Assembly (NCBI GenBank): GCA_964561765.1
Contig: CAZLQI010000009.1
Coordinates: 37,266 to 101,265, forward strand
DNA: 64,000 nt
Origin: an uncultured Chromatiales bacterium
Lineage (GTDB): Bacteria; Pseudomonadota; Gammaproteobacteria; DATFLL01
Reading direction: 5' to 3'
Of this stretch, positions 8,822 to 25,885 are shown piece by piece. Within the stretch, counting starts at the first letter, position 1, and the number at the start of each line of letters is the position of its first letter. Position numbers and translations under genes: made by a program. The notes under the pieces are model-generated. The model searched no databases, was not told where the DNA came from, and was given only the letters and a program-made list of their open reading frames with translations.

Positions 8822-10312
8822 ATGAGCCTGTCCGATATTTTTCTCTTCCTGCCGGGACCGCCCGTCATTTCCATCCTGTTCTGGGTGGTGCTGTTAATGG
8901 CGGCCCTGTACCTGGCACGTACCCCTGCACATCGCGCCCTGTTATCTCTGAGCAGTGTGCTGCACCATGCCTTCAGACTGTCGGCGTACTCGGTGCGCCT
9001 GGCCGAACAACGCCTGCACCTGCGCAACCGCGAGGTGTTGCTCTCTGCCGGGCGCGAGGCGTCGGAACGCATCATTGAACGCGAGTTCGAACGCGTGGAT
9101 GATGGGGTGCGCCGCGATCTGGCCGAGTATCCCGCCCTGCAGCGCCACATCAACGAGGGCATCACGCATATCGAGGAGGACTACCAGCAGAGCACCGAGG
9201 TACCACCGGCCCCGCCGGGCTGGGTCAAGGCCGTTGAGTCCGTGGCCAAGATTCCGTCTGCGGGCGATCCTATGGTGGCCAATATTCTTGAGGATATCCA
9301 CAGTTCGTTGCTCAAGGCGCAGAACCATGCCACCGAGGAATACCGCAAGAGTAGCCACGAACGCCATATGTATCTCAAACGCATGATGCCGCACTGGCGC
9401 AGGCTGCTGCAATTGCTTGGTCGTGTGGACAAGAATGTGAACAGCCTGCTGGAGCGATCCAAGACGCTGGACCGACACATGGACGAGTACGAGGGGATCA
9501 TCAAGAAGACGGACCATGCGGTGCGCATGCTGTCCTCGTCTTCCATTACCCAGTTCTTCATCGCGGCCTTTGTGTTGGTGATTGCCATTGGTGGTGCGGT
9601 GATCAACTTTCATCTCATCGCCCGGCCGATGTCGGAGATGGTAGGTGGGACGAGTTACATCAATCTGGGTTTTGCCAGCTATCGGACTGCGGATGTTGCC
9701 GCCCTGGTGCTCATCTTGGTCGAGGTCGCGATGGGCCTGTTTCTGATGGAGTCCTTGCGTATCACGCGCCTGTTCCCGGTGATCAATGCGCTGAATGACA
9801 AGCTGCGTGTGCGCATGATCTGGATTACATTCGCCATCCTGCTCGCATTGGCCAGTGTCGAATCGGGGCTGGCCTATATGCGTGAGATCCTCTCGCTGGA
9901 TGATGCGGCGCTGCGCGCCACGCTGCTCGGCAATACCTCCGTGGCGGTGGACCATACCAGCCGCTGGATCACCACGGCGGCGCAGATGGGGATGAGTTTC
10001 ATCTTGCCCTTCGCCCTGACCTTTGTGGCGATTCCACTGGAGTCCTTTATTCATTCCCTGCGCACCGTGCTGGGTCTCGTCGGTGTGGGGTTGTTGCGGG
10101 CGTTGGCTTTTGCGCTGCGACTGCTGGGCAACATCTCACGCTATACCGGAACACTGTCGGTCAATGTGTATGATTTGCTGATCTTTGCGCCGTTGTGGCT
10201 GGAGCGCCAGTGGATACAACGCAGTGCCGGGCGGCCCCTCGGCGTGGTGGTGAAGGCGGAGGGTCGACGCGGGGGCGGCGCCAAGCCCGCCGCGGTGGAG
10301 GGGCAGTCATGA
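8822..10312 (+). CDS. conserved hypothetical polytopic membrane protein (N-terminal TM, ~200-aa charged helical domain, 5 C-terminal TM helices)
   Basis: 496-aa ORF with a strong AGGAGG RBS 6 nt upstream; hydrophobic segments at about aa 8-30, 241-266, 295-315, 333-355, 382-410 and 413-436; the stop overlaps the next gene's start (ATGA); no family recognised. Confidence 0.7.
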   Translation: MSLSDIFLFLPGPPVISILFWVVLLMAALYLARTPAHRALLSLSSVLHHAFRLSAYSVRLAEQRLHLRNREVLLSAGREASERIIEREFERVDDGVRRDLAEYPALQRHINEGITHIEEDYQQSTEVPPAPPGWVKAVESVAKIPSAGDPMVANILEDIHSSLLKAQNHATEEYRKSSHERHMYLKRMMPHWRRLLQLLGRVDKNVNSLLERSKTLDRHMDEYEGIIKKTDHAVRMLSSSSITQFFIAAFVLVIAIGGAVINFHLIARPMSEMVGGTSYINLGFASYRTADVAALVLILVEVAMGLFLMESLRITRLFPVINALNDKLRVRMIWITFAILLALASVESGLAYMREILSLDDAALRATLLGNTSVAVDHTSRWITTAAQMGMSFILPFALTFVAIPLESFIHSLRTVLGLVGVGLLRALAFALRLLGNISRYTGTLSVNVYDLLIFAPLWLERQWIQRSAGRPLGVVVKAEGRRGGGAKPAAVEGQS

Positions 10313-10980
10313 ACAGGCGTCCTGACCTTATGCGTGTCCTGGTTGCGCTCCTGTTGGTGTTCGCGCTTGCGGGCTGCTCTTCCAAGAGTGCGGTCTCCCA
10401 CACCCGCGGGGTCTACATGCTCATTGACACCTCAGGGACTTATACCAATGAGTTGCAGAAGGCACAAAATATTGTCGACTACGTGCTGTCCAAGCTCAAC
10501 CCGGGTGATTCTTTTGCTGTGGCGCGTATCGATACCGGCAGTTTCAGTCAGAAAAATATCATAGCCAAGATGACGTTTGATGATCGCCCCAGTATGGCCA
10601 ATGCGGAGAAGCGCGAGTTTCGCGAGACCATCGATAAATTCATCAAGCACGTGAGACCGAGCGCTTACACGGATGTCACCGGCGGTATCCTGCAGGCCAT
10701 CGAGTTTCTCAACGAGGTGAACCCGGGCCACAAGACCATCCTGATCTTCTCCGACCTCAAGCAAGATCTGAAGAAAGGCTATGTGCGCAACATTCCTCTC
10801 CAGCTCAACGGTTTCGATGTGATCGCACTCAATGTCACCAAATTGCGCAGCGACAATGTTGATCCCCGCGAGTACATGAACAGGTTGAAGGAATGGCGCA
10901 AGAAGGTCGTGGCGGGCGGTGGTCATTGGCGCGTCATCAATGACCTGGAACGTATGGAGGGAATCTTCCCTAATCCATAG
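10309..10980 (+). CDS. VWA (von Willebrand factor A) domain lipoprotein
   Basis: Signal peptide plus lipobox LLVFALAGCSS; MIDAS motif DxSxS (YMLIDTSGT) with downstream TDVTGG and IFSDLKQD elements typical of VWA; translationally coupled to the upstream membrane protein. Confidence 0.75.
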   Translation: MNRRPDLMRVLVALLLVFALAGCSSKSAVSHTRGVYMLIDTSGTYTNELQKAQNIVDYVLSKLNPGDSFAVARIDTGSFSQKNIIAKMTFDDRPSMANAEKREFRETIDKFIKHVRPSAYTDVTGGILQAIEFLNEVNPGHKTILIFSDLKQDLKKGYVRNIPLQLNGFDVIALNVTKLRSDNVDPREYMNRLKEWRKKVVAGGGHWRVINDLERMEGIFPNP

Positions 10981-12497: not shown

Positions 12498-13061
12498 GTG
12501 TCTGCCGATAAACTGCTATGGTTCGCGCCGGGGATATGTGCACTGGCGTACTGGCATGGTGAGGGCATTTTCAGCAGTGTTGAGCAAGTCTTACAATCGG
12601 ACAAATTCATGAGCCATACGATTCCAGTCGGGCGCACACGCCACCCCATGTGGTTCTATGAGCGGAACTATGCCCTGTTGCATCGACTCGTACCGGGCGG
12701 ATTGAGTCTGGGTGAGGATGTCCTGCTGGCTGCCCGCGAGAGTGGTCTGTTGCGTTTTCGTGTCGAGGAACAGTGCAAATATACCCTGACGGTTGGCATC
12801 ACTCACGCGTTTAGTGTCCGATCGGCGGCGGTGAACGAGCTGTATTTGCAGGTAAGAATCTATTGTGATGCCAGTGTGGCTGAAGTGATGGGTTATCAGG
12901 GGCATTGGCGATTTCTGCCTACCTATGATTACCCTAATGAAAACATGTTTTTACCCGATGAGAAACGACAAGTCAATTTTCTGCTCTATGAATTATTGTG
13001 CCATTTCATGACGCGAAATCGTCAGTTTGTGGACATGACCGTCGATACTGTAGGTAGCTGA
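12498..13061 (+). CDS. DUF1249 family protein (YqiB-like)
   Basis: RIYCDASVAEVMGYQGHWRFLPTYDYPNENMFLPDEKRQVNFLLYELL aligns with E. coli YqiB ([48 protein letters not shown]); the true start is possibly the Met at 12609. Confidence 0.7.
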   Translation: MSADKLLWFAPGICALAYWHGEGIFSSVEQVLQSDKFMSHTIPVGRTRHPMWFYERNYALLHRLVPGGLSLGEDVLLAARESGLLRFRVEEQCKYTLTVGITHAFSVRSAAVNELYLQVRIYCDASVAEVMGYQGHWRFLPTYDYPNENMFLPDEKRQVNFLLYELLCHFMTRNRQFVDMTVDTVGS

Positions 13062-13062
13062 C

Positions 13063-13848
13063 ATGAATGTGCCTGAGAAAAGAGGGTGTGACTCGAACGC
13101 CGCGTGCGCCCTTGACGCGACCTTCGTGTCCTGCAAGTGGCGTGGAATTGGCCGCGTCATGTTGTTGTGCGTTGCGCTGAGTGTGCCCGTGGGGGCAGTG
13201 GCCGCTAATGCAGCTCAGGCCCTGCAAGCGCAGCAAGTCGGTGATTTCGCTACCGCGATGCACGTGTGGATGTCATTGGCGCAAGGCGGTGATCCGGTGG
13301 CGGAGTACAATCTCGGTTTGCTGTACCGCCATGGACAGGGCGTGGCGCAGAGTGTTGCTCAGGCACGGCATTGGTTTACCCTTGCGGCCAGTCACGGGTT
13401 GGCTGATGCCTATGCCATGCTGGGTCAGGTACCGGCCGCTCTACAGGCCAGCGCCCAGGCGCCTGCGATGCGCAGTCCGAACGCGCCACAGGTCAGCGCC
13501 AATGTGCCTGCGAGGCAGACATCGACAGGTGTAGCACCAGGCGCCAGTGTGGCGCAGGGTGCACAGAGGTGGATCAGGCAACAAAGCCCGAGCCACTACA
13601 CCCTCCAGTTGGCGAGCAGCAAGAACGTGAGTCTGATCGAGAAATACATCTCTGCTAATAACCTTGAGGGGCGAGCAGGCTATTACAAGAGTCGGCGAGG
13701 TGGCGAGGATTGGTATGCCTTGGTCTACGGCAGCTACGCCTCCTTGGCCACTGCGAAGGCGGCCATCGCCAGTTTACCCGCGAGTCTGCGCAAGTGGTCA
13801 CCGTGGGTACGCAAGTATGCCGATATCCAGCATATCATGGCGCGTTGA
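13063..13848 (+). CDS. Sel1-repeat / SPOR-domain periplasmic protein
   Basis: Sel1-like repeats (AEYNLGLLYRHGQGVAQSVAQARHWFTLAASHG) and a C-terminal SPOR domain (HYTLQLASSKNVSLIEKYI...WYALVYGSYASLATAKAAIASLP); signal-peptide-like MLLCVALSVPVGAVAANA suggests a start near 13159. Confidence 0.7.
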   Translation: MNVPEKRGCDSNAACALDATFVSCKWRGIGRVMLLCVALSVPVGAVAANAAQALQAQQVGDFATAMHVWMSLAQGGDPVAEYNLGLLYRHGQGVAQSVAQARHWFTLAASHGLADAYAMLGQVPAALQASAQAPAMRSPNAPQVSANVPARQTSTGVAPGASVAQGAQRWIRQQSPSHYTLQLASSKNVSLIEKYISANNLEGRAGYYKSRRGGEDWYALVYGSYASLATAKAAIASLPASLRKWSPWVRKYADIQHIMAR

Positions 13849-13860
13849 GTCAGCGTCGAC

Positions 13861-14304
13861 TCAGTCCTGAGTGTGTCCACCGCACTGTCTTGCCATGTTC
13901 ATGATGCGCTGCGCAGCGCGTGTTTCGGTCTTACCAGCGACCTTCACCGCCTGTGCATAGCCATGCAGAAATGCGGGCAGACGTTGTACCACCAGTGCCT
14001 TGCGGGCGCGGCTGACGCCCTGCACCGCCCAGGCAACGCGCCAGTCCGCATTAGGCAGGGCGTCGCAGATCTTCAGGCTCCAGGTCGGTTGACGCAGGGT
14101 CCATTCATGGGCGCGCACCACCAGCCGATAGACCGTCTCTTTGCCCTCCACACCGACACCGGGGCCGATGTACTCGACTTCAAGGGCGGGGGCCAATTGT
14201 TCGAATTCCGCGTCCAGCGCAGCCAGCGCGATATCCAGTGCCTGTGTGATGGCCACAGGCGTGGTCTGACTCAGTTTGGCAAGGACATCCATATAGTCAG
14301 GCAT
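13861..14304 (-). CDS. hypothetical protein (147 aa)
   Basis: The start was set at the Met with a GGAG RBS 6 nt upstream (…aaaggGGAGcaacgATG); the longer track ORF extends into the probable 5' UTR; no family recognised. Confidence 0.5.
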   Translation of the reverse strand: MPDYMDVLAKLSQTTPVAITQALDIALAALDAEFEQLAPALEVEYIGPGVGVEGKETVYRLVVRAHEWTLRQPTWSLKICDALPNADWRVAWAVQGVSRARKALVVQRLPAFLHGYAQAVKVAGKTETRAAQRIMNMARQCGGHTQD

Positions 14305-14847
14305 CGTTGCTCCCCTTTCGGTGCAAATCCAAGGCGACGCAGTATAACAGCCCTCAGACGGGGAATCTGCGTCATCACTCACGGTCAGGTTGTCGTTAAT
14401 GCCCCACGCCAGGTAGACCCCGGTAACCTCAGGGTTCATCAAGACGTGCGCAGAAAGCAGATACCCCACACGGGCGGGTGCGTGCAACTGGAATGATGGT
14501 CACACGATAGGGCGGAAAGAGGGTGAATGTGCTTCACGGAAATAGTACATTTCATACGGGAATATACAGGATATATGCTAGTCGGCCTCCGCTTTACAGT
14601 GGGTGGTTTATCGAGTGCATGTGCTGCCAACAGCGACAAGACGCATTGCGTTATTTTGGGCATGGATTTAGCCCTATTTCTGTGCTAGACCTTTAAGTAG
14701 CTCTGTAACTCAGGTTACTGCCAAACAGGATTACAGCATGATAGGTTAGAGCCGTCCCTTAAAGCGAAGGAATTCAGCAATCCTTGTATTCATTTAAGGT
14801 GTGATCTGGGATGTTGTTGTAATCCTAACTACTAGGAGGGCATAGCC

Positions 14848-15495
14848 ATGAATACTGAAGACCTACATATGAAAGAAACCCTGATCGGCGGTGCCGGGGC
14901 GGAAGCGATTGCCGGCATTGGTGCTGTCGCCCTGAGCGTTATCGGGCTGGCACATGTATATCCCGATGTACTGCTTGCCATAAGCGGGATCGCCGTTGGT
15001 ATCGGGTTGTTGCTGGAAGGCAGCAGTCTTGCGGTAGAACACAGAAAGTTGTTGTCACTCATTGCCCCTGACAAACTGGAGCACATAAACGTCGACATGG
15101 GTATGAGTGTGGAGGTAATCGCTGGTCTGACCGCGGTGGTACTCGGCATACTCTCAGTACTGGCCCTGAATCCCGACGTCCTCATGCCCGCTGCTGCGAT
15201 TGTCGTGGGCACCGCCCTGCTACTTTCCAGTGGTACCACGGCGCGTCTTAACGCGTTGCGTCTGGCGGGCCAGGATGTAGAGGGTCCTGCCCTGCACGTA
15301 GCCCGTGAAATGGTCAACGGCTCGGCCATGACCGAAGTGTTGGTGGGCATCAGTGCTGTTGTACTCGGTATCCTGGCACTGATTGGTGTTGTGCCGACCG
15401 TATTGACCCTGGTCGCCTTCCTGGCCATTGGTGGCTCGCTGGCGCTGAGCGGTTCTGCGATCGGTGGACGCCTGTTTGGCGCCATCAAGGCCTAA
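14848..15495 (+). CDS. small integral membrane protein with three tandem ~50-aa internal repeats (six predicted TM helices), Gly/Ala-zipper rich
   Basis: Strong RBS ctAGGAGGgcatagccATG; repeat units E(A/V)I/LxGI/LxAVxLxxI/LxL...P(D/T)VL...AxIxVGxxLLLxSG occur three times; preceded by a 540-bp AT-rich region. Confidence 0.65.
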   Translation: MNTEDLHMKETLIGGAGAEAIAGIGAVALSVIGLAHVYPDVLLAISGIAVGIGLLLEGSSLAVEHRKLLSLIAPDKLEHINVDMGMSVEVIAGLTAVVLGILSVLALNPDVLMPAAAIVVGTALLLSSGTTARLNALRLAGQDVEGPALHVAREMVNGSAMTEVLVGISAVVLGILALIGVVPTVLTLVAFLAIGGSLALSGSAIGGRLFGAIKA

Positions 15496-15547
15496 ACCAG
15501 GTAGCGCAACCACGTTGGCTGACAATAGAGACTTCACTTAAATCGAC

Positions 15548-15591
15548 CAAGGGCCTATTGCGCAAAGACGACACGCGTCAATAGGCCCTTG
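15548..15591 (+). terminator. perfect 13-bp inverted repeat hairpin (CAAGGGCCTATTG...CAATAGGCCCTTG) downstream of the triplicated membrane protein gene; no U-tract
   Basis: Seen directly in the sequence; 18-nt loop; may be a terminator or other structured site. Confidence 0.4.
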
Positions 15592-15596
15592 CGCTC

Positions 15597-15704
15597 TGGT
15601 TCCATACGAACCTAAAAATCAAGAAAGCCGAAACTCTCTTCCCAGACGTTGATTATCTTCGTTTTCATCTCGTTCAATGTAAGCTCAAGACGATCAAGAA
15701 TATA
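15597..15704 (-). pseudogene. reverse transcriptase remnant (group II intron/retron-type RT domain 6-7 fragment)
   Basis: Translation MLRYILDRLELTLNEMKTKIINVWEESFGFLDF* matches the RT signature ...L.LNEEKTKI...(E)GFDFLGF, with the final motif corrupted and truncated; locally low GC; only about 35-55 codons remain. Confidence 0.4.
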
Positions 15705-15788
15705 TCTCAGCATGGACAGCGGTGTGACTGTCCTCCTGTGCAACTCAATCGAGTCTGAACCCCATTGATTGATCTCCGGTTGGGGGCA

Positions 15789-16655
15789 TCAACACGTGCC
15801 GACAGCCACCAGCATTTCGCAGGGGCCTTCGAACCGGGCGTGAGTTTCAAACTGTCTGAGTGCCTCCGCTATTTCCTGCCAGGTTTCATCTTTTTCTGTA
15901 TCGGACAGCGAAGCCATCATCTGATGCAATGCGCCGAATGATTCTTGTTCGAACTGTAAACATTCGACAGCGGATGCCAGCCGAATCGGCGCGTCAATGG
16001 CTTCCACCCGAATGTCTTTCAGTCCTGCCCGGTTGAACACATCGGTCAGAATATCCGCCGTGCCCAGGCTGAAGGGGCCGGGTTGGCCGGGCAGTGGGGC
16101 AGGCGGTTTGGCGCGGCGGCGGATGATGGAGACCGGAATGGAAAAGAACGGGTTCTTCTCTGCGGTAGCGTACACCATTGCAGCGATCTTGCCGCCTGGC
16201 TTGAGTTGCTGTTTCATTCCGAGCAGGGCCTTTTGCTGGTCGGGGAAATAGATCAGGCCAACACGCGAGATCACGGCATCGAACAGGTCGCCCTTCAACG
16301 TGTCCAGGCATTCGCCGTCGATGACACAGGCGTGGACATTGTTCAGCCCGGCCAGTTTTGCCGAGGCAGCGGCGTAGTCAAGAATGTTTGGCGACAGATC
16401 CGTGGCCAGCACATAGCCGGTGTCACCGACACGTTTGGCGGCGGTAATGGACTGCTCGCCTGCGCCGGCAGCCACATCGAGCACCCGGCTGCCGGTGGTG
16501 ATTTCGCACATATCCAGCATGGTGTCGGTGGCTGGACCCAGCCAGCGGTTCAGCAAGGGGCTCCAACGGTGCCAAGCCTCGGCTGCGCTGTTCCATTGTT
16601 CCAGAGTGGTTTTCTTGTATTGTTCGGCGTTGAATTGCGATGGGTTTTTGGTCAT
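15789..16655 (-). CDS. class I SAM-dependent methyltransferase
   Basis: Motif I VLDVAAGAGEQS and post-I acidic residue ATDLSP; Methyltransf_11/25-like fold; 288 aa. Confidence 0.8.
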   Translation of the reverse strand: MTKNPSQFNAEQYKKTTLEQWNSAAEAWHRWSPLLNRWLGPATDTMLDMCEITTGSRVLDVAAGAGEQSITAAKRVGDTGYVLATDLSPNILDYAAASAKLAGLNNVHACVIDGECLDTLKGDLFDAVISRVGLIYFPDQQKALLGMKQQLKPGGKIAAMVYATAEKNPFFSIPVSIIRRRAKPPAPLPGQPGPFSLGTADILTDVFNRAGLKDIRVEAIDAPIRLASAVECLQFEQESFGALHQMMASLSDTEKDETWQEIAEALRQFETHARFEGPCEMLVAVGTC

Positions 16656-17648: not shown

Positions 17649-17903
17649 CGGCTGAATCCGTGAGTCCATCACCCAAGCTCTTGATCCGTTTTTCCTACTT
17701 CAATCCTCTTGCAAAACGCTCGGAAATGAACGCATGGAGTCTGCTATTGGTAGAGAAAAGACGGCAAAGAACTGGAAGCGTTCATGGAAGCTAAGGGTGA
17801 TTGGGACGATGACCCCTGAGCGGGAACAAGTACTTTCGGCTCTCTAACCACAGAGAGCAGGAAGTAAACCTATGTGATGCAGGATCAACTACGACTCGGG
17901 TTA

Positions 17904-18600
17904 TAGCTGCGCCTTGGGCACCTATCCACCGGTAGCAAGCCGTTTGTCGTAGATAATGCCTTTTCCTTCCTGCTGGTCATGGTTCGGTCCCTCGACGTAC
18001 TGGTAGGGAATGAGTCCGTCGATGCGCTCAAATCCAGCTTCATCCAGCATATCGGTCAGATATCCCGCCAGGGGGCTGATATCGGCATAATGGAAAGTGC
18101 CATCAATCTCCAGCCTTGCCCAGCATCGGTGAATATCACCAATGGATTTGTTTCTATCTCATTCTACGCTCGGAAACTGTCGGGGTGGTGCCGGGGCCGT
18201 CATTGTGGCAGACACCGCACTGATGCGGTTCGACTGTGTATGCCAGCACACGGCCGCTGAAATTAACGGTGTCGCGCCATTCACTCACCAGCCGGTAATG
18301 GTTATCCTCTTGTCTGGCGAGGATTGAATGCGCGAAATCCACTGGCATCTTGGCGCCAACTATTTGGGTCAAAATGGTGCTTTGTTCTTCCCGGTATGAT
18401 ATTTCAGATATTCTTGTGCTATGTCTTCGTGATAGGTTGACACCGCTCCGTTACGACCTGTTCGATACGTTTCAGCTCTGGATAGGCGCCGTAGCGTGCC
18501 TCTACTTCCTCCCGTGCAGAGCCGAGGTGTTTTTGTAAACCGGGTGCAATCTCTTTCACGAGCTTACCCAGGAATTGCGACCGTATCGCACATACTGTTT
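17904..18600 (-). pseudogene. frameshifted gene remnant of unknown function (three consecutive reading-frame fragments)
   Basis: Minus-strand fragments ...FLGKLVKEIAPGLQKHLGSAREEVEARYGAYPELKRIEQVV.. / ..ILARQEDNHYRLVSEWRDTVNFSGRVLAYTVEPH.. / ..ARLEIDGTFHYADISPLAGYLTDMLDEAGFERIDGLIPYQYVEGPNHDQQ.. abut in different frames; the region lacks any long intact ORF and has reduced GC. Confidence 0.3.
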
Positions 18601-18687
18601 GGTCAGTGTGTCCCCGTCAGGGGGTACACCGTCCTGTACCTGCGCTTATCCTGGTGGTGTGGTTCAGGTTTCTTTGATGAGTGATGA

Positions 18688-19212
<525 letters not shown>

Positions 19213-22442: not shown

Positions 22443-22535
<93 letters not shown>

Positions 22536-25769: not shown

Positions 25770-25885
25770 GGTGGCTTGTGTCGGTCCCCCCGCGACGATA
25801 AACCGTGAACCCGGTCAGACCCGGAAGGGAGCAGCCGCAGCGGTGGACTCGGGCGCCGGGGTGTGGCTGGCATGAGTCGCCACCC
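25770..25885 (+). ncRNA. ffs: signal recognition particle RNA (4.5S RNA, ffs)
   Basis: Domain IV core ...GUGAACCCGGUCAGACCCGGAAGGGAGCAGCCGCAGCGG... matches the E. coli 4.5S motif CCAGGUCAGGUCCGGAAGGAAGCAGCCAAGGCAG; the 5' GGUGGC pairs with the 3' GCCACC; located just upstream of dnaX, as is common in gammaproteobacteria. Confidence 0.7.

What the first reader, a model, noticed from the sequence alone, without database searches (positions are those of the whole stretch)
14305..15495. AT-rich 540-bp leader and a small membrane protein made of three tandem 2-TM repeats
A 63%-GC genome background drops sharply across 14500-14850, which is long, AT-rich and free of ORFs, between divergent starts. 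It precedes a gene with a perfect AGGAGG RBS encoding a 215-aa protein built from three roughly 50-aa repeats, each a Gly/Ala-zipper helical hairpin (six predicted TM helices in total). I cannot place it in a known family, and its compositional context (AT-rich flank, adjacent reverse-transcriptase relic, hairpin) suggests horizontally acquired DNA. Candidates include a small oligomeric channel or holin-like protein, or a stress/envelope protein; the long leader could carry an sRNA or riboregulator.
Basis: seen in the sequence. Interest (0 to 1): 0.6.

Follow-up and report, generated by a model that had tools for sequence, protein, structure and literature searches.

The report
Unnamed three-repeat membrane protein, CRP/FNR-type operator
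The gene encodes a real six-helix inner-membrane protein made of three repeated hairpins, from a widespread family that no curated library describes, and its long AT-rich upstream region holds a conserved binding site for an oxygen/NO-type regulator, not a structured RNA.

Summary
ORF 14848-15495 (215 aa, AGGAGG 8 nt upstream) follows a 543-bp divergent intergenic region. That region contains the most AT-rich 350 nt of the 64-kb window. The protein consists of three homologous ~65-70-aa units (profile-profile E about 1e-14). Each unit is a hydrophobic helical hairpin. Lys/Arg distribution supports an N-in/C-in six-TM topology.

It belongs to a family of about 1,800 clusters at 50% identity across many phyla. 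This family has no Pfam, NCBIfam, PHROGs, PADLOC or PDB match. It is not detectably HdeD/DUF308 and shows nothing holin-like.

I found no support for a riboregulator in the leader. There is no Rfam hit, the fold z-score is -0.94, and the distal part carries large indels in a sister strain. The conserved proximal 150 nt instead holds the palindrome CTGTAAC-N4-GTTACTG. This is unique in the window and recurs upstream of orthologues in two other lineages, where a CRP/FNR-family regulator gene lies directly upstream. The motif equals the published predicted HcpR2 consensus.

Relatives cluster with an H+-efflux P-type ATPase, PPK2 and CFA synthase. The best reading is a stress-induced (low oxygen/NO/energy) membrane protein. 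Its biochemical role is unknown.

The parts
14848..15495 (+). CDS, 215 aa. Predicted six-TM inner-membrane protein with N- and C-termini in the cytoplasm, member of an undescribed family.
   Evidence: ORF. Hydropathy. 177 homologues in the word-indexed database and 1,819 50%-identity representatives at E<=1e-3, all 205-277 aa and matched full length. AF2 model has six helices, pLDDT 87. K+R are concentrated in the N-terminus, the two linkers and the C-terminus (2.1-3.5 per segment) against 0.04-0.14 in the three turns.
14872..15063 (+). Repeat 1 (residues 9-72): helix, turn (VYPD), helix, then polar linker.
15079..15276 (+). Repeat 2 (residues 78-143): helix, turn (NPDV), helix, then polar linker.
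15289..15492 (+). Repeat 3 (residues 148-215): helix, turn (VPTV), helix, then basic C-terminal tail.
14834..14839 (+). Shine-Dalgarno AGGAGG, 8 nt before the ATG. GGAGG is also present at the orthologues.
14703..14720 (.). CTGTAACTCAGGTTACTG: 14-bp palindrome GTAAC-N4-GTTAC (14705-14718) with conserved CT/TG flanks, 143 nt upstream of the ATG. Predicted operator of a CRP/FNR-family regulator.
   Evidence: It is the only match (<=1 mismatch) in the 64-kb window. Exact matches in ~187 kb of related loci lie only upstream of orthologues (L019, L005, L014/L020/L021). Chance per 300-nt upstream region is <=3e-4. The flanks are identical in all lineages. It lies inside a 33-nt block that is 100% identical to the sister strain. 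It matches the predicted HcpR2 consensus GTAACnnnnGTTAC (PMC1274295).
14305..14847 (.). Divergent intergenic region (543 bp). The distal part 14305-14700 is poorly constrained. The proximal part 14700-14847 is conserved and is probably the promoter plus 5' UTR.
   Evidence: No Rfam hit. Fold z -0.94.
15548..15591 (+). 13-bp perfect stem with 18-nt loop, 53 nt after the stop codon and without a U tract. Probable 3' end or stabiliser of the transcript.
   Evidence: Fold z -4.0 with 0/200 shuffles as stable. One compensatory A-T to G-C change against L019. Not repeated elsewhere in the window. Window/L019 homology ends at 15590.
13861..14304 (-). Divergently transcribed 147-aa ORF of unknown function that shares the intergenic region.
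   Evidence: No Pfam, NCBIfam, PHROGs or PADLOC hit. Among the fetched loci it is found only in the sister strain L019.

Best explanation
The gene encodes an integral inner-membrane protein built by triplication of a ~65-70-aa unit. Each unit is a transmembrane helical hairpin with a 4-residue periplasmic turn, followed by a polar cytoplasmic helical extension. This gives six TM helices with both termini and both linkers in the cytoplasm. It is one member of a large, phylogenetically broad family that no curated library describes.

The gene stands alone as a transcription unit, with a strong RBS and a 3' stem-loop. Transcription is probably controlled from the palindrome GTAAC-N4-GTTAC at -143 by a dimeric CRP/FNR-family regulator that is encoded elsewhere in this genome. 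In this reading the AT-rich 'leader' is a divergent promoter/operator region plus unconstrained spacer, not a riboregulator.

By association, the protein is made under low-oxygen, NO or energy/acid stress and acts in the membrane. Possible roles are stabilising or tightening the bilayer, or modulating the H+-efflux P-type ATPase that accompanies it in relatives.

Shown here: the ORF, the repeats, the family, the charge distribution consistent with N-in/C-in topology, motif conservation, regulator adjacency in relatives, and the recurring neighbours. Inferred: regulator binding, the inducing signal, and the biochemical role.
For: Architecture.

Family size and breadth. Named sources include Gammaproteobacteria, Zetaproteobacteria, Burkholderiaceae, Xanthobacteraceae, Blastocatellia, Gemmatimonadaceae, Rhodothermales, Minicystis and Sorangium.

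Operator: unique in the window. Exact copies sit upstream of orthologues in three independent lineages and nowhere else in ~187 kb. Flanks are conserved. It lies in the best-conserved block of the leader.

Regulator: a CRP/FNR-family gene lies directly upstream of the orthologue in L005, in L020/L021/L014 and in the P0013 contig. The three regulator sequences share an invariant recognition helix, IGSVRVV(V/A)NRL. When I align this by eye to CRP's R180-E181-T-V-G-R185, it has Val at the Glu-181 position. Rodionov et al. link loss of Glu-181 with the GTAAC-N4-GTTAC motif (PMC1274295).

Other lineages carry FNR-like boxes at the same distance from the ATG: L023 at -143, L009/L016 at -133, L020 at -133. 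In all, 5 of 7 lineages have a CRP/FNR-type box.

Neighbours in the close subfamily: a type IIIA H+-efflux P-type ATPase in three lineages (TIGR01647, 1026 bits), PPK2, a PGM-like gene preceded by a 1-mismatch box in L020, CFA synthase, PDH-E1b/E2 with phosphotransacetylase, and NnrS.
Against: No homologue of the regulator lies within the 64-kb window (best tblastn E 0.28), so the trans factor in this organism is unseen.

No convincing -10/-35 could be placed next to the box, and the consensus scan found no promoter on the + strand.

The 83%-identical Zetaproteobacteria orthologue (L008/L015) and L006 have no box.

The box lies in a shared divergent region and could serve the 147-aa gene instead.

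In the wider family (35-45% identity) the neighbourhoods are unrelated to each other, so the stress-cluster association holds only for the close subfamily.

The window locus itself has none of the ATPase, PPK2 or regulator neighbours.

No residue pattern points to a specific activity. The conserved positions are mostly Gly and Leu.
Confidence: 0.5

Rival explanations
1. The protein is an accessory or regulatory subunit (proteolipid-like partner) of the type IIIA H+-efflux P-type ATPase, acting by direct helix-helix contact in the membrane.
For: The ATPase gene lies within 0.3-1.7 kb downstream of the orthologue in three lineages: L005, L020 and L008. A 1-mismatch copy of the box sits just before the ATPase gene in L020.
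Against: The window (64 kb) and the sister strain carry the gene without any such ATPase nearby. Most family members have unrelated contexts. At 215 aa with six helices, it is much larger than known P-type ATPase regulators such as PMP1, phospholamban or KdpF (own knowledge).
Confidence: 0.12
2. It is a small channel or transporter, possibly oligomeric.
For: It has six TM helices from an internal triplication, which is common among carriers and channels. Glu/Gln is conserved at the start of the first helix of each repeat (E19 80%, E89 82%).
Against: The conserved acidic residues lie at the predicted cytoplasmic interface, not mid-membrane. No polar or charged residue is conserved inside the hydrophobic cores. 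No transporter family or fold match was found. The best structural match is a designed helical-repeat protein (TM 0.69), which is generic.
Confidence: 0.12
3. It is a distant HdeD/DUF308-type acid-resistance membrane protein, that is, homologous and not merely analogous.
For: The overall plan is the same: ~190-215 aa and three 2-TM units. JGI labelled one fragment of the family as HdeD/DUF308, and that fragment gives DUF308 at E 0.37. Relatives sit next to acid/membrane-stress genes, namely CFA synthase and the H+-ATPase.
Against: hhalign of the family profile and of the repeat profile against an HdeD alignment gives probability 0.8% and 0.7%. No DUF308 hit appeared among the top families for 57 full-length members or 58 repeat units. 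The HdeD profile used was narrow (enterobacterial only).
Confidence: 0.08
4. The locus is horizontally acquired DNA encoding a holin-like or otherwise mobile-element-derived protein, with an sRNA or riboregulator in the leader.
For: It holds the lowest-GC 350 nt of the window. Gene GC3 is the 4th lowest of 58 ORFs. Strain-variable DNA starts right after the 3' hairpin.
Against: There are no PHROGs, PADLOC or viral fold matches. The RT relic is unconfirmed. There is no Rfam hit, no fold signal and no leader conservation beyond the sister strain. Upstream synteny is kept between strains. The family is chromosomal and stand-alone in many phyla.
Confidence: 0.05

Closest known systems
HdeD / DUF308 (PF03729) acid-resistance inner-membrane protein of E. 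coli
   Same: It is a small (190 aa) inner-membrane protein built from repeated 2-TM units, six TM helices in all, and stress-induced. Some relatives of the present gene sit beside acid/membrane-stress genes.
   Different: No detectable sequence relationship was found (hhalign probability 0.8%; no PF03729 hit). The present family has 25-35-aa polar helical linkers between hairpins. There is no hdeAB/gadE context.
DUF1206 (PF06724), as I recall it: a 2-TM unit occurring three times per protein
   Same: The same 3 x 2-TM plan (from memory, not verified here).
   Different: No Pfam match at E<=1 to any model, PF06724 included, for the protein, 57 relatives or 58 repeat units. No profile-profile test was possible.
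HcpR2-type CRP/FNR regulon (predicted motif GTAACnnnnGTTAC; Rodionov et al. 2005, PMC1274295)
   Same: The palindrome is identical. A CRP/FNR-family regulator gene is adjacent to the target in related loci. The regulator's recognition helix lacks Glu at the CRP-181 position.
   Different: HcpR2 was defined in Clostridia, Bacteroides, Thermotogales and Treponema with hcp as the target. Here the hosts are Proteobacteria, the target is an unknown membrane protein, no hcp gene is seen in the loci, and position 181 is Val rather than Pro.
Low-oxygen-activated (lxa) locus of Burkholderia cenocepacia (PMC3721108)
   Same: It is a cluster under CRP/FNR-type boxes that includes CRP-family regulators and a cation-transporting ATPase and serves anoxic persistence. 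This is analogous to the PPK2, H+-ATPase and regulator clusters around the orthologues.
   Different: The motif is different (TGA-N6-TCA). No homologue of the 215-aa protein is reported there, and I did not test for one. This is an analogy only.
F/V/A-ATPase c-subunit proteolipids
   Same: Gly/Ala-rich helical hairpins, duplicated or triplicated in some lineages.
   Different: Foldseek TM-scores are only 0.14-0.19. The conserved carboxylate is at the interface rather than mid-membrane. The topology is opposite (termini inside here). There is no ATPase operon.

Membership tests
HdeD / DUF308 (PF03729) | Match to the Pfam DUF308 repeat model | tested here: not met
   No hit at E<=1 for the protein, and DUF308 is not among the families listed (top 25) for 57 relatives or for 58 repeat units. 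E. coli HdeD itself scores 7e-19.
HdeD / DUF308 (PF03729) | Profile-profile similarity to HdeD homologues | tested here: not met
   hhalign probability is 0.8% for the full family and 0.7% for the repeat unit. The HdeD profile was narrow (11 enterobacterial sequences).
HdeD / DUF308 (PF03729) | Six TM helices from repeated 2-TM units in a ~190-aa protein | tested here: met
   This is a resemblance of plan only.
Phage holins (including Holin-X, PF07332) | Match to a holin family or a viral protein fold | tested here: not met
   PHROGs gave 0 families. BFVD best E was 0.022 with TM 0.44, to an uncharacterised Pithovirus protein. Only 1 of 57 relatives touched PF07332, at 6e-5.
Phage holins (including Holin-X, PF07332) | Neighbouring endolysin/spanin or prophage genes | tested here: not met
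   The neighbours are DUF1249, Sel1-SPOR, a methyltransferase and LysR.
CRP/FNR-family operator of the HcpR2 type | 14-bp palindrome GTAAC-N4-GTTAC upstream of the regulated gene | tested here: met
   Window 14705-14718. Exact copies lie upstream of orthologues in L019, L005 and L014/L020/L021. The consensus is from PMC1274295.
CRP/FNR-family operator of the HcpR2 type | Cognate CRP/FNR-family regulator gene linked to the target | tested here: inconclusive
   Met in three related lineages. No such gene lies in this 64-kb window.
CRP/FNR-family operator of the HcpR2 type | Recognition helix without Glu at CRP position 181 | tested here: met
   The invariant SVRVV(V/A)NR is. Placing it against CRP's RETVGR was done by eye from my own knowledge of the CRP sequence.
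CRP/FNR-family operator of the HcpR2 type | hcp (hybrid-cluster protein) as core regulon member | not tested
   No hcp-like Pfam annotation appears among the called genes of the fetched loci. The genomes were not searched.
CRP/FNR-family operator of the HcpR2 type | Protein-DNA binding and effect on transcription | not testable with these tools
   Needs EMSA, ChIP or reporter assays.
cis-regulatory RNA / sRNA in the leader | Match to a described RNA family, unusual stability, or conservation/covariation across loci | tested here: not met
   Rfam gave 0 at E<=1. Fold z was -0.94. The leader is not alignable in L008. The terminator-like stem at 14588-14603 is broken in L019 (G.U to A/C).
F/V/A-ATPase c-subunit proteolipids | Structural superposition and a mid-membrane carboxylate | tested here: not met
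   TM 0.14-0.19. The conserved Glu lies at the start of the helices.

The most novel reading that the evidence does not exclude
The family is a so far unrecognised, widely distributed effector of bacterial low-oxygen/NO (CRP/FNR-type) stress regulons. In this reading it is a triplicated-hairpin membrane protein that works with the bacterial plasma-membrane-type H+-ATPase and polyphosphate-driven nucleotide regeneration to keep the membrane energised and proton-tight when respiration stops.
Probability: 0.15. Interest if true: 0.65.

Novelty: new variant of a known kind. Interest (0 to 1): 0.4.

Why it matters
The family comprises about 1,800 50%-identity clusters spread over Proteobacteria, Acidobacteriota, Gemmatimonadota, Rhodothermales and Myxococcota. 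It has a fixed three-repeat architecture and no Pfam, NCBIfam or PDB anchor, so it is a candidate for a new curated family.

The operator and the regulator adjacency give it a first testable handle. They predict induction through a CRP/FNR-type regulator that carries an unusual recognition helix. They also extend the GTAAC-N4-GTTAC specificity, previously predicted for HcpR2 of anaerobes, to proteobacterial regulators and to a new target.

The recurring link with a bacterial type IIIA H+-ATPase, PPK2 and CFA synthase points to membrane-energetics stress. If confirmed, this would identify a new component of that response. If not, this is simply one more conserved hypothetical membrane protein with an ordinary regulated promoter.

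Tried and rejected
- Known protein family. Pfam, NCBIfam, PHROGs and PADLOC scans of the protein, 57 relatives and 58 repeat units gave nothing consistent.
- Solved structure. PDB sequence-profile search: best E 1.2. Foldseek against PDB: no hit at E<=1e-3, best TM 0.69 to a designed helical repeat. Foldseek against viral structures: nothing.
- HdeD homology: rejected by hhalign.
- Single-hairpin ancestors. A search with the repeat-unit profile returned only fragments of the same family.
- Leader RNA: rejected, see the membership test.
- Sigma-54, EcfG, sigma-32 and sigma-E consensus searches in upstream regions gave only weak, non-recurrent matches.
- A sigma-70 promoter on the + strand was not found by the scan.
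- RT relic: no Pfam support.
- REP-like nature of the 3' hairpin: rejected, it is a single copy.
- GxxxG 'zipper' enrichment: rejected.
- Scans of genome and metagenome collections gave only six extra loci. The first attempt, with the broad alignment, failed.
- A literature search for the PPK2/ATPase/CFA cluster found nothing specific.
Full report
**Observation**

The window carries an ATG-initiated ORF at 14848-15495 (+) encoding 215 aa. A perfect AGGAGG sits at 14834-14839. The gene upstream is divergent. Its long TTG-ORF (13861-14487) is best read from the ATG at 14304, which has a GGGGAG RBS and is the start chosen by public gene calls for the identical contigs (147 aa).

The window's overall GC is 59.5%, not 63%. 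The region 14488-14847 is 45% GC. The 350-nt stretch starting at 14531 has the lowest GC of any 350-nt window in the 64 kb (0.434), and only 0.09% of windows are as low as 14500-14849. Several short intergenic regions fall to 42-50% too, so the unusual feature is the length of the AT-rich stretch. The gene's own GC3 (0.62) is the fourth lowest of 58 ORFs (z -1.56), which is low but within range.

**The protein**

Three hydrophobic double peaks appear in the hydropathy profile. The three thirds of the protein align to each other with z = 7.7-11.1 over shuffles. At family level, profiles of the three units match each other with hhalign probability 98.3-98.5% and E 1e-14 to 2e-15. The triplication is therefore real and old.

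The period is about 65-70 aa. Each unit has a ~45-50-aa hydrophobic hairpin whose turn is four residues long (VYPD, NPDV, VPTV), followed by a polar, partly amphipathic linker. An AlphaFold2 model built on 57 homologues is confident (pLDDT 87.1, pTM 0.84) and shows six helices of 28-34 residues in three hairpins. Across the family, Lys+Arg average 2.1-3.5 in the N-terminus, both linkers and the C-terminus, but 0.04-0.14 in the three turns. This fits a six-TM, N-in/C-in inner-membrane protein with minimal periplasmic exposure.

Conserved positions are mostly Gly and Leu, plus a Glu/Gln at the start of the first helix of each unit. No charged residue is conserved in mid-membrane. Small-xxx-small spacing is not enriched (z 0.27), and the conserved glycines are at G-x6-G spacing. 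'Glycine zipper' is therefore only loosely apt.

**Family**

The word-indexed search found 177 homologues. An exhaustive profile search found 1,819 50%-identity representatives at E<=1e-3 (830 at E<=1e-30). All the best 150 are 205-277 aa and match end to end. Named sources include Gammaproteobacteria, Burkholderiaceae, Xanthobacteraceae, Blastocatellia, Gemmatimonadaceae, Rhodothermales, Minicystis and Sorangium, and a Zetaproteobacteria MAG.

Because one JGI label pointed to HdeD/DUF308, I fetched E. coli hdeD and built an HdeD alignment. Comparing profiles gave probability 0.8% and 0.7%. The resemblance to HdeD (three 2-TM units, ~190 aa) is one of plan, not demonstrable ancestry.

**The leader**

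There is no Rfam match at E<=1 in 13500-16500 and none at gathering threshold in the locus. RNA folding of 14600-14870 is ordinary (z -0.94).

A sister strain (L019; protein 98%, DNA ~90% identical) allows phylogenetic footprinting. The distal leader carries a 53-nt deletion, a 43-nt insertion and many substitutions, which also destroy the small ORFs there. The last ~150 nt are better conserved (~93%) than the CDS (89.9%), and they include a 33-nt block with no change. The 83%-identical Zetaproteobacteria orthologue has only 193 bp upstream and nothing alignable. Other loci have 193-440 bp upstream. So the long leader is specific to this lineage and most of it is unconstrained.

**The operator**

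The invariant block contains CTGTAACTCAGGTTACTG (14703-14720), a 14-bp palindrome GTAAC-N4-GTTAC. It is the only match, even with one mismatch, in the 64-kb window. In ~187 kb of window and related loci, exact matches occur only upstream of orthologues:
- L019, at -140;
- L005 (77% identical protein), at -250;
- L014/L020/L021 (75%), at -197.

The CT/TG flanks are the same in all. The chance of one such box in a 300-nt upstream region is <=3e-4.

In L005, in L020/L021/L014 and in the P0013 contig, the gene immediately upstream is a 242-250-aa CRP/FNR-family regulator. The three available regulator sequences share an invariant recognition helix, IGSVRVV(V/A)NRL. L020 has a further 1-mismatch box 150 nt upstream of a PGM-like gene, and another just before the ATPase gene.

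The literature gives the same consensus, GTAACnnnnGTTAC, as the predicted site of the HcpR2 branch of the CRP/FNR family. It ties this consensus to loss of Glu-181 in the recognition helix (PMC1274295). In my alignment by eye, the regulators here have Val at that position.

Other lineages of the close subfamily carry FNR-like boxes (TTGAY-N4-ATCAA, one mismatch) at nearly the same distance from the ATG: L023 at -143, L009/L016 at -133, L020 at -133. Chance is 0.2-1.7% per lineage. In L009/L016 a TACCAT hexamer sits at the class II distance.

Altogether, 5 of 7 independent lineages have a CRP/FNR-type box. No homologue of the regulator lies in this window, and I could not place a convincing -10. 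Binding and activation in this organism are therefore inferred.

**Context and function**

In this window the gene is flanked by DUF1249, a Sel1-SPOR protein and the unknown 147-aa ORF upstream. Downstream are a SAM methyltransferase and a LysR regulator. None of these is informative.

In the close subfamily the neighbours recur:
- a type IIIA plasma-membrane-type H+-efflux P-type ATPase (TIGR01647, 1026 bits) in L005, L020 and L008;
- PPK2;
- a PGM/PMM-like enzyme;
- CFA synthase;
- PDH E1b/E2 plus phosphotransacetylase;
- NnrS and a PRC-barrel protein.

These are functions typical of survival without respiration, nitrosative stress, and acid/membrane stress. The Burkholderia lxa locus is an analogous cluster with CRP-family regulators and a cation ATPase, but with a different motif (PMC3721108). 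In the wider family (35-45% identity) the gene stands alone in unrelated contexts.

My best reading is a stress-induced inner-membrane protein under CRP/FNR-type control. A structural or modulatory role in the membrane is more likely than transport. That last step rests on guilt by association and is weak.

**3' end and variability**

A 13-bp perfect stem (15548-15591) lies 53 nt past the stop codon. The 3' UTR folds far better than shuffles (z -4.0). The stem keeps pairing through an A-T to G-C double change in L019. It is single-copy and lacks a U tract.

Homology with L019 stops at 15590. Beyond it the window has the alleged RT fragment (no Pfam support), a methyltransferase and LysR, whereas L019 has a Liv-type ABC transporter. 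The gene's transcription unit thus ends at the hairpin, and the DNA beyond it is strain-variable. This gives no evidence that the gene itself was recently acquired.

**Verdict**

The unplaced three-repeat membrane protein and the stress/envelope option stand. The riboregulator, holin and island readings are not supported.

The new element is a conserved CRP/FNR-type (HcpR2-like) operator and its linked regulator family. This is an undescribed but not exotic kind of gene, of moderate interest.

Noticed in passing
window 17649-18705: A 1,057-bp stretch has no ORF of 100 aa or more (GC 0.52). It lies between the LysR gene and a cytidine/deoxycytidylate deaminase gene. It gave no Rfam hit at gathering threshold.
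   Followed up: partly
The 42-43-aa peptide ...LELTLNEMKTKIINVWEESFGFLDF looks a little like RT motifs 6-7 but gives no Pfam hit at E<=1. It lies in DNA that is absent from the sister strain L019.
   Followed up: partly
window 15591/15592 versus L019 ~5530: A synteny breakpoint between two strains that are ~90% identical at DNA level falls exactly after the 3' hairpin. The window continues with a methyltransferase and LysR, while L019 continues with a five-gene branched-chain-amino-acid-type ABC transporter.
   Followed up: partly
window 13861-14304 (-): The divergent 147-aa ORF has no hit in Pfam, NCBIfam, PHROGs or PADLOC. Among the fetched loci it is present only in the sister strain (93% identity). 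It shares the intergenic region and could also be controlled from the palindrome.
   Followed up: partly
L020 1984-3781 (also L021): Two paralogous CRP/FNR-family regulators (47% identical to each other) sit in tandem, separated by a 70-aa ORF with no family. They have the same recognition helix and lie upstream of the orthologue, PPK2 and the H+-ATPase.
   Followed up: partly
L009 and L016, -133 to -92 from the ATG: The FNR-like box TTGGTTTCCATCAA is followed by TACCAT at the spacing expected for a class II FNR promoter. This is upstream of the 55%-identical orthologue in a Gammaproteobacteria MAG.
   Followed up: partly
window 10309-10980 (+) and 12498-13061 (+): Two genes have clearly lower GC (0.51) than their neighbours. 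One is a 223-aa protein with only a weak lipoprotein-signal hit, and the other is DUF1249. The whole 10-19 kb region is patchy in GC.
   Followed up: no
window 25779-25875 and 22443-22533: Bacterial small SRP RNA (69.5 bits) and tRNA-Ser(GGA). These are ordinary housekeeping RNAs and show that the window is chromosomal.
   Followed up: yes
L008 8-6295: In the Zetaproteobacteria MAG the orthologue lies between a GCS2-type glutamate-cysteine ligase (divergent) and CFA synthase plus the H+-ATPase (same strand). It has no CRP/FNR-type box within 300 nt.
   Followed up: partly
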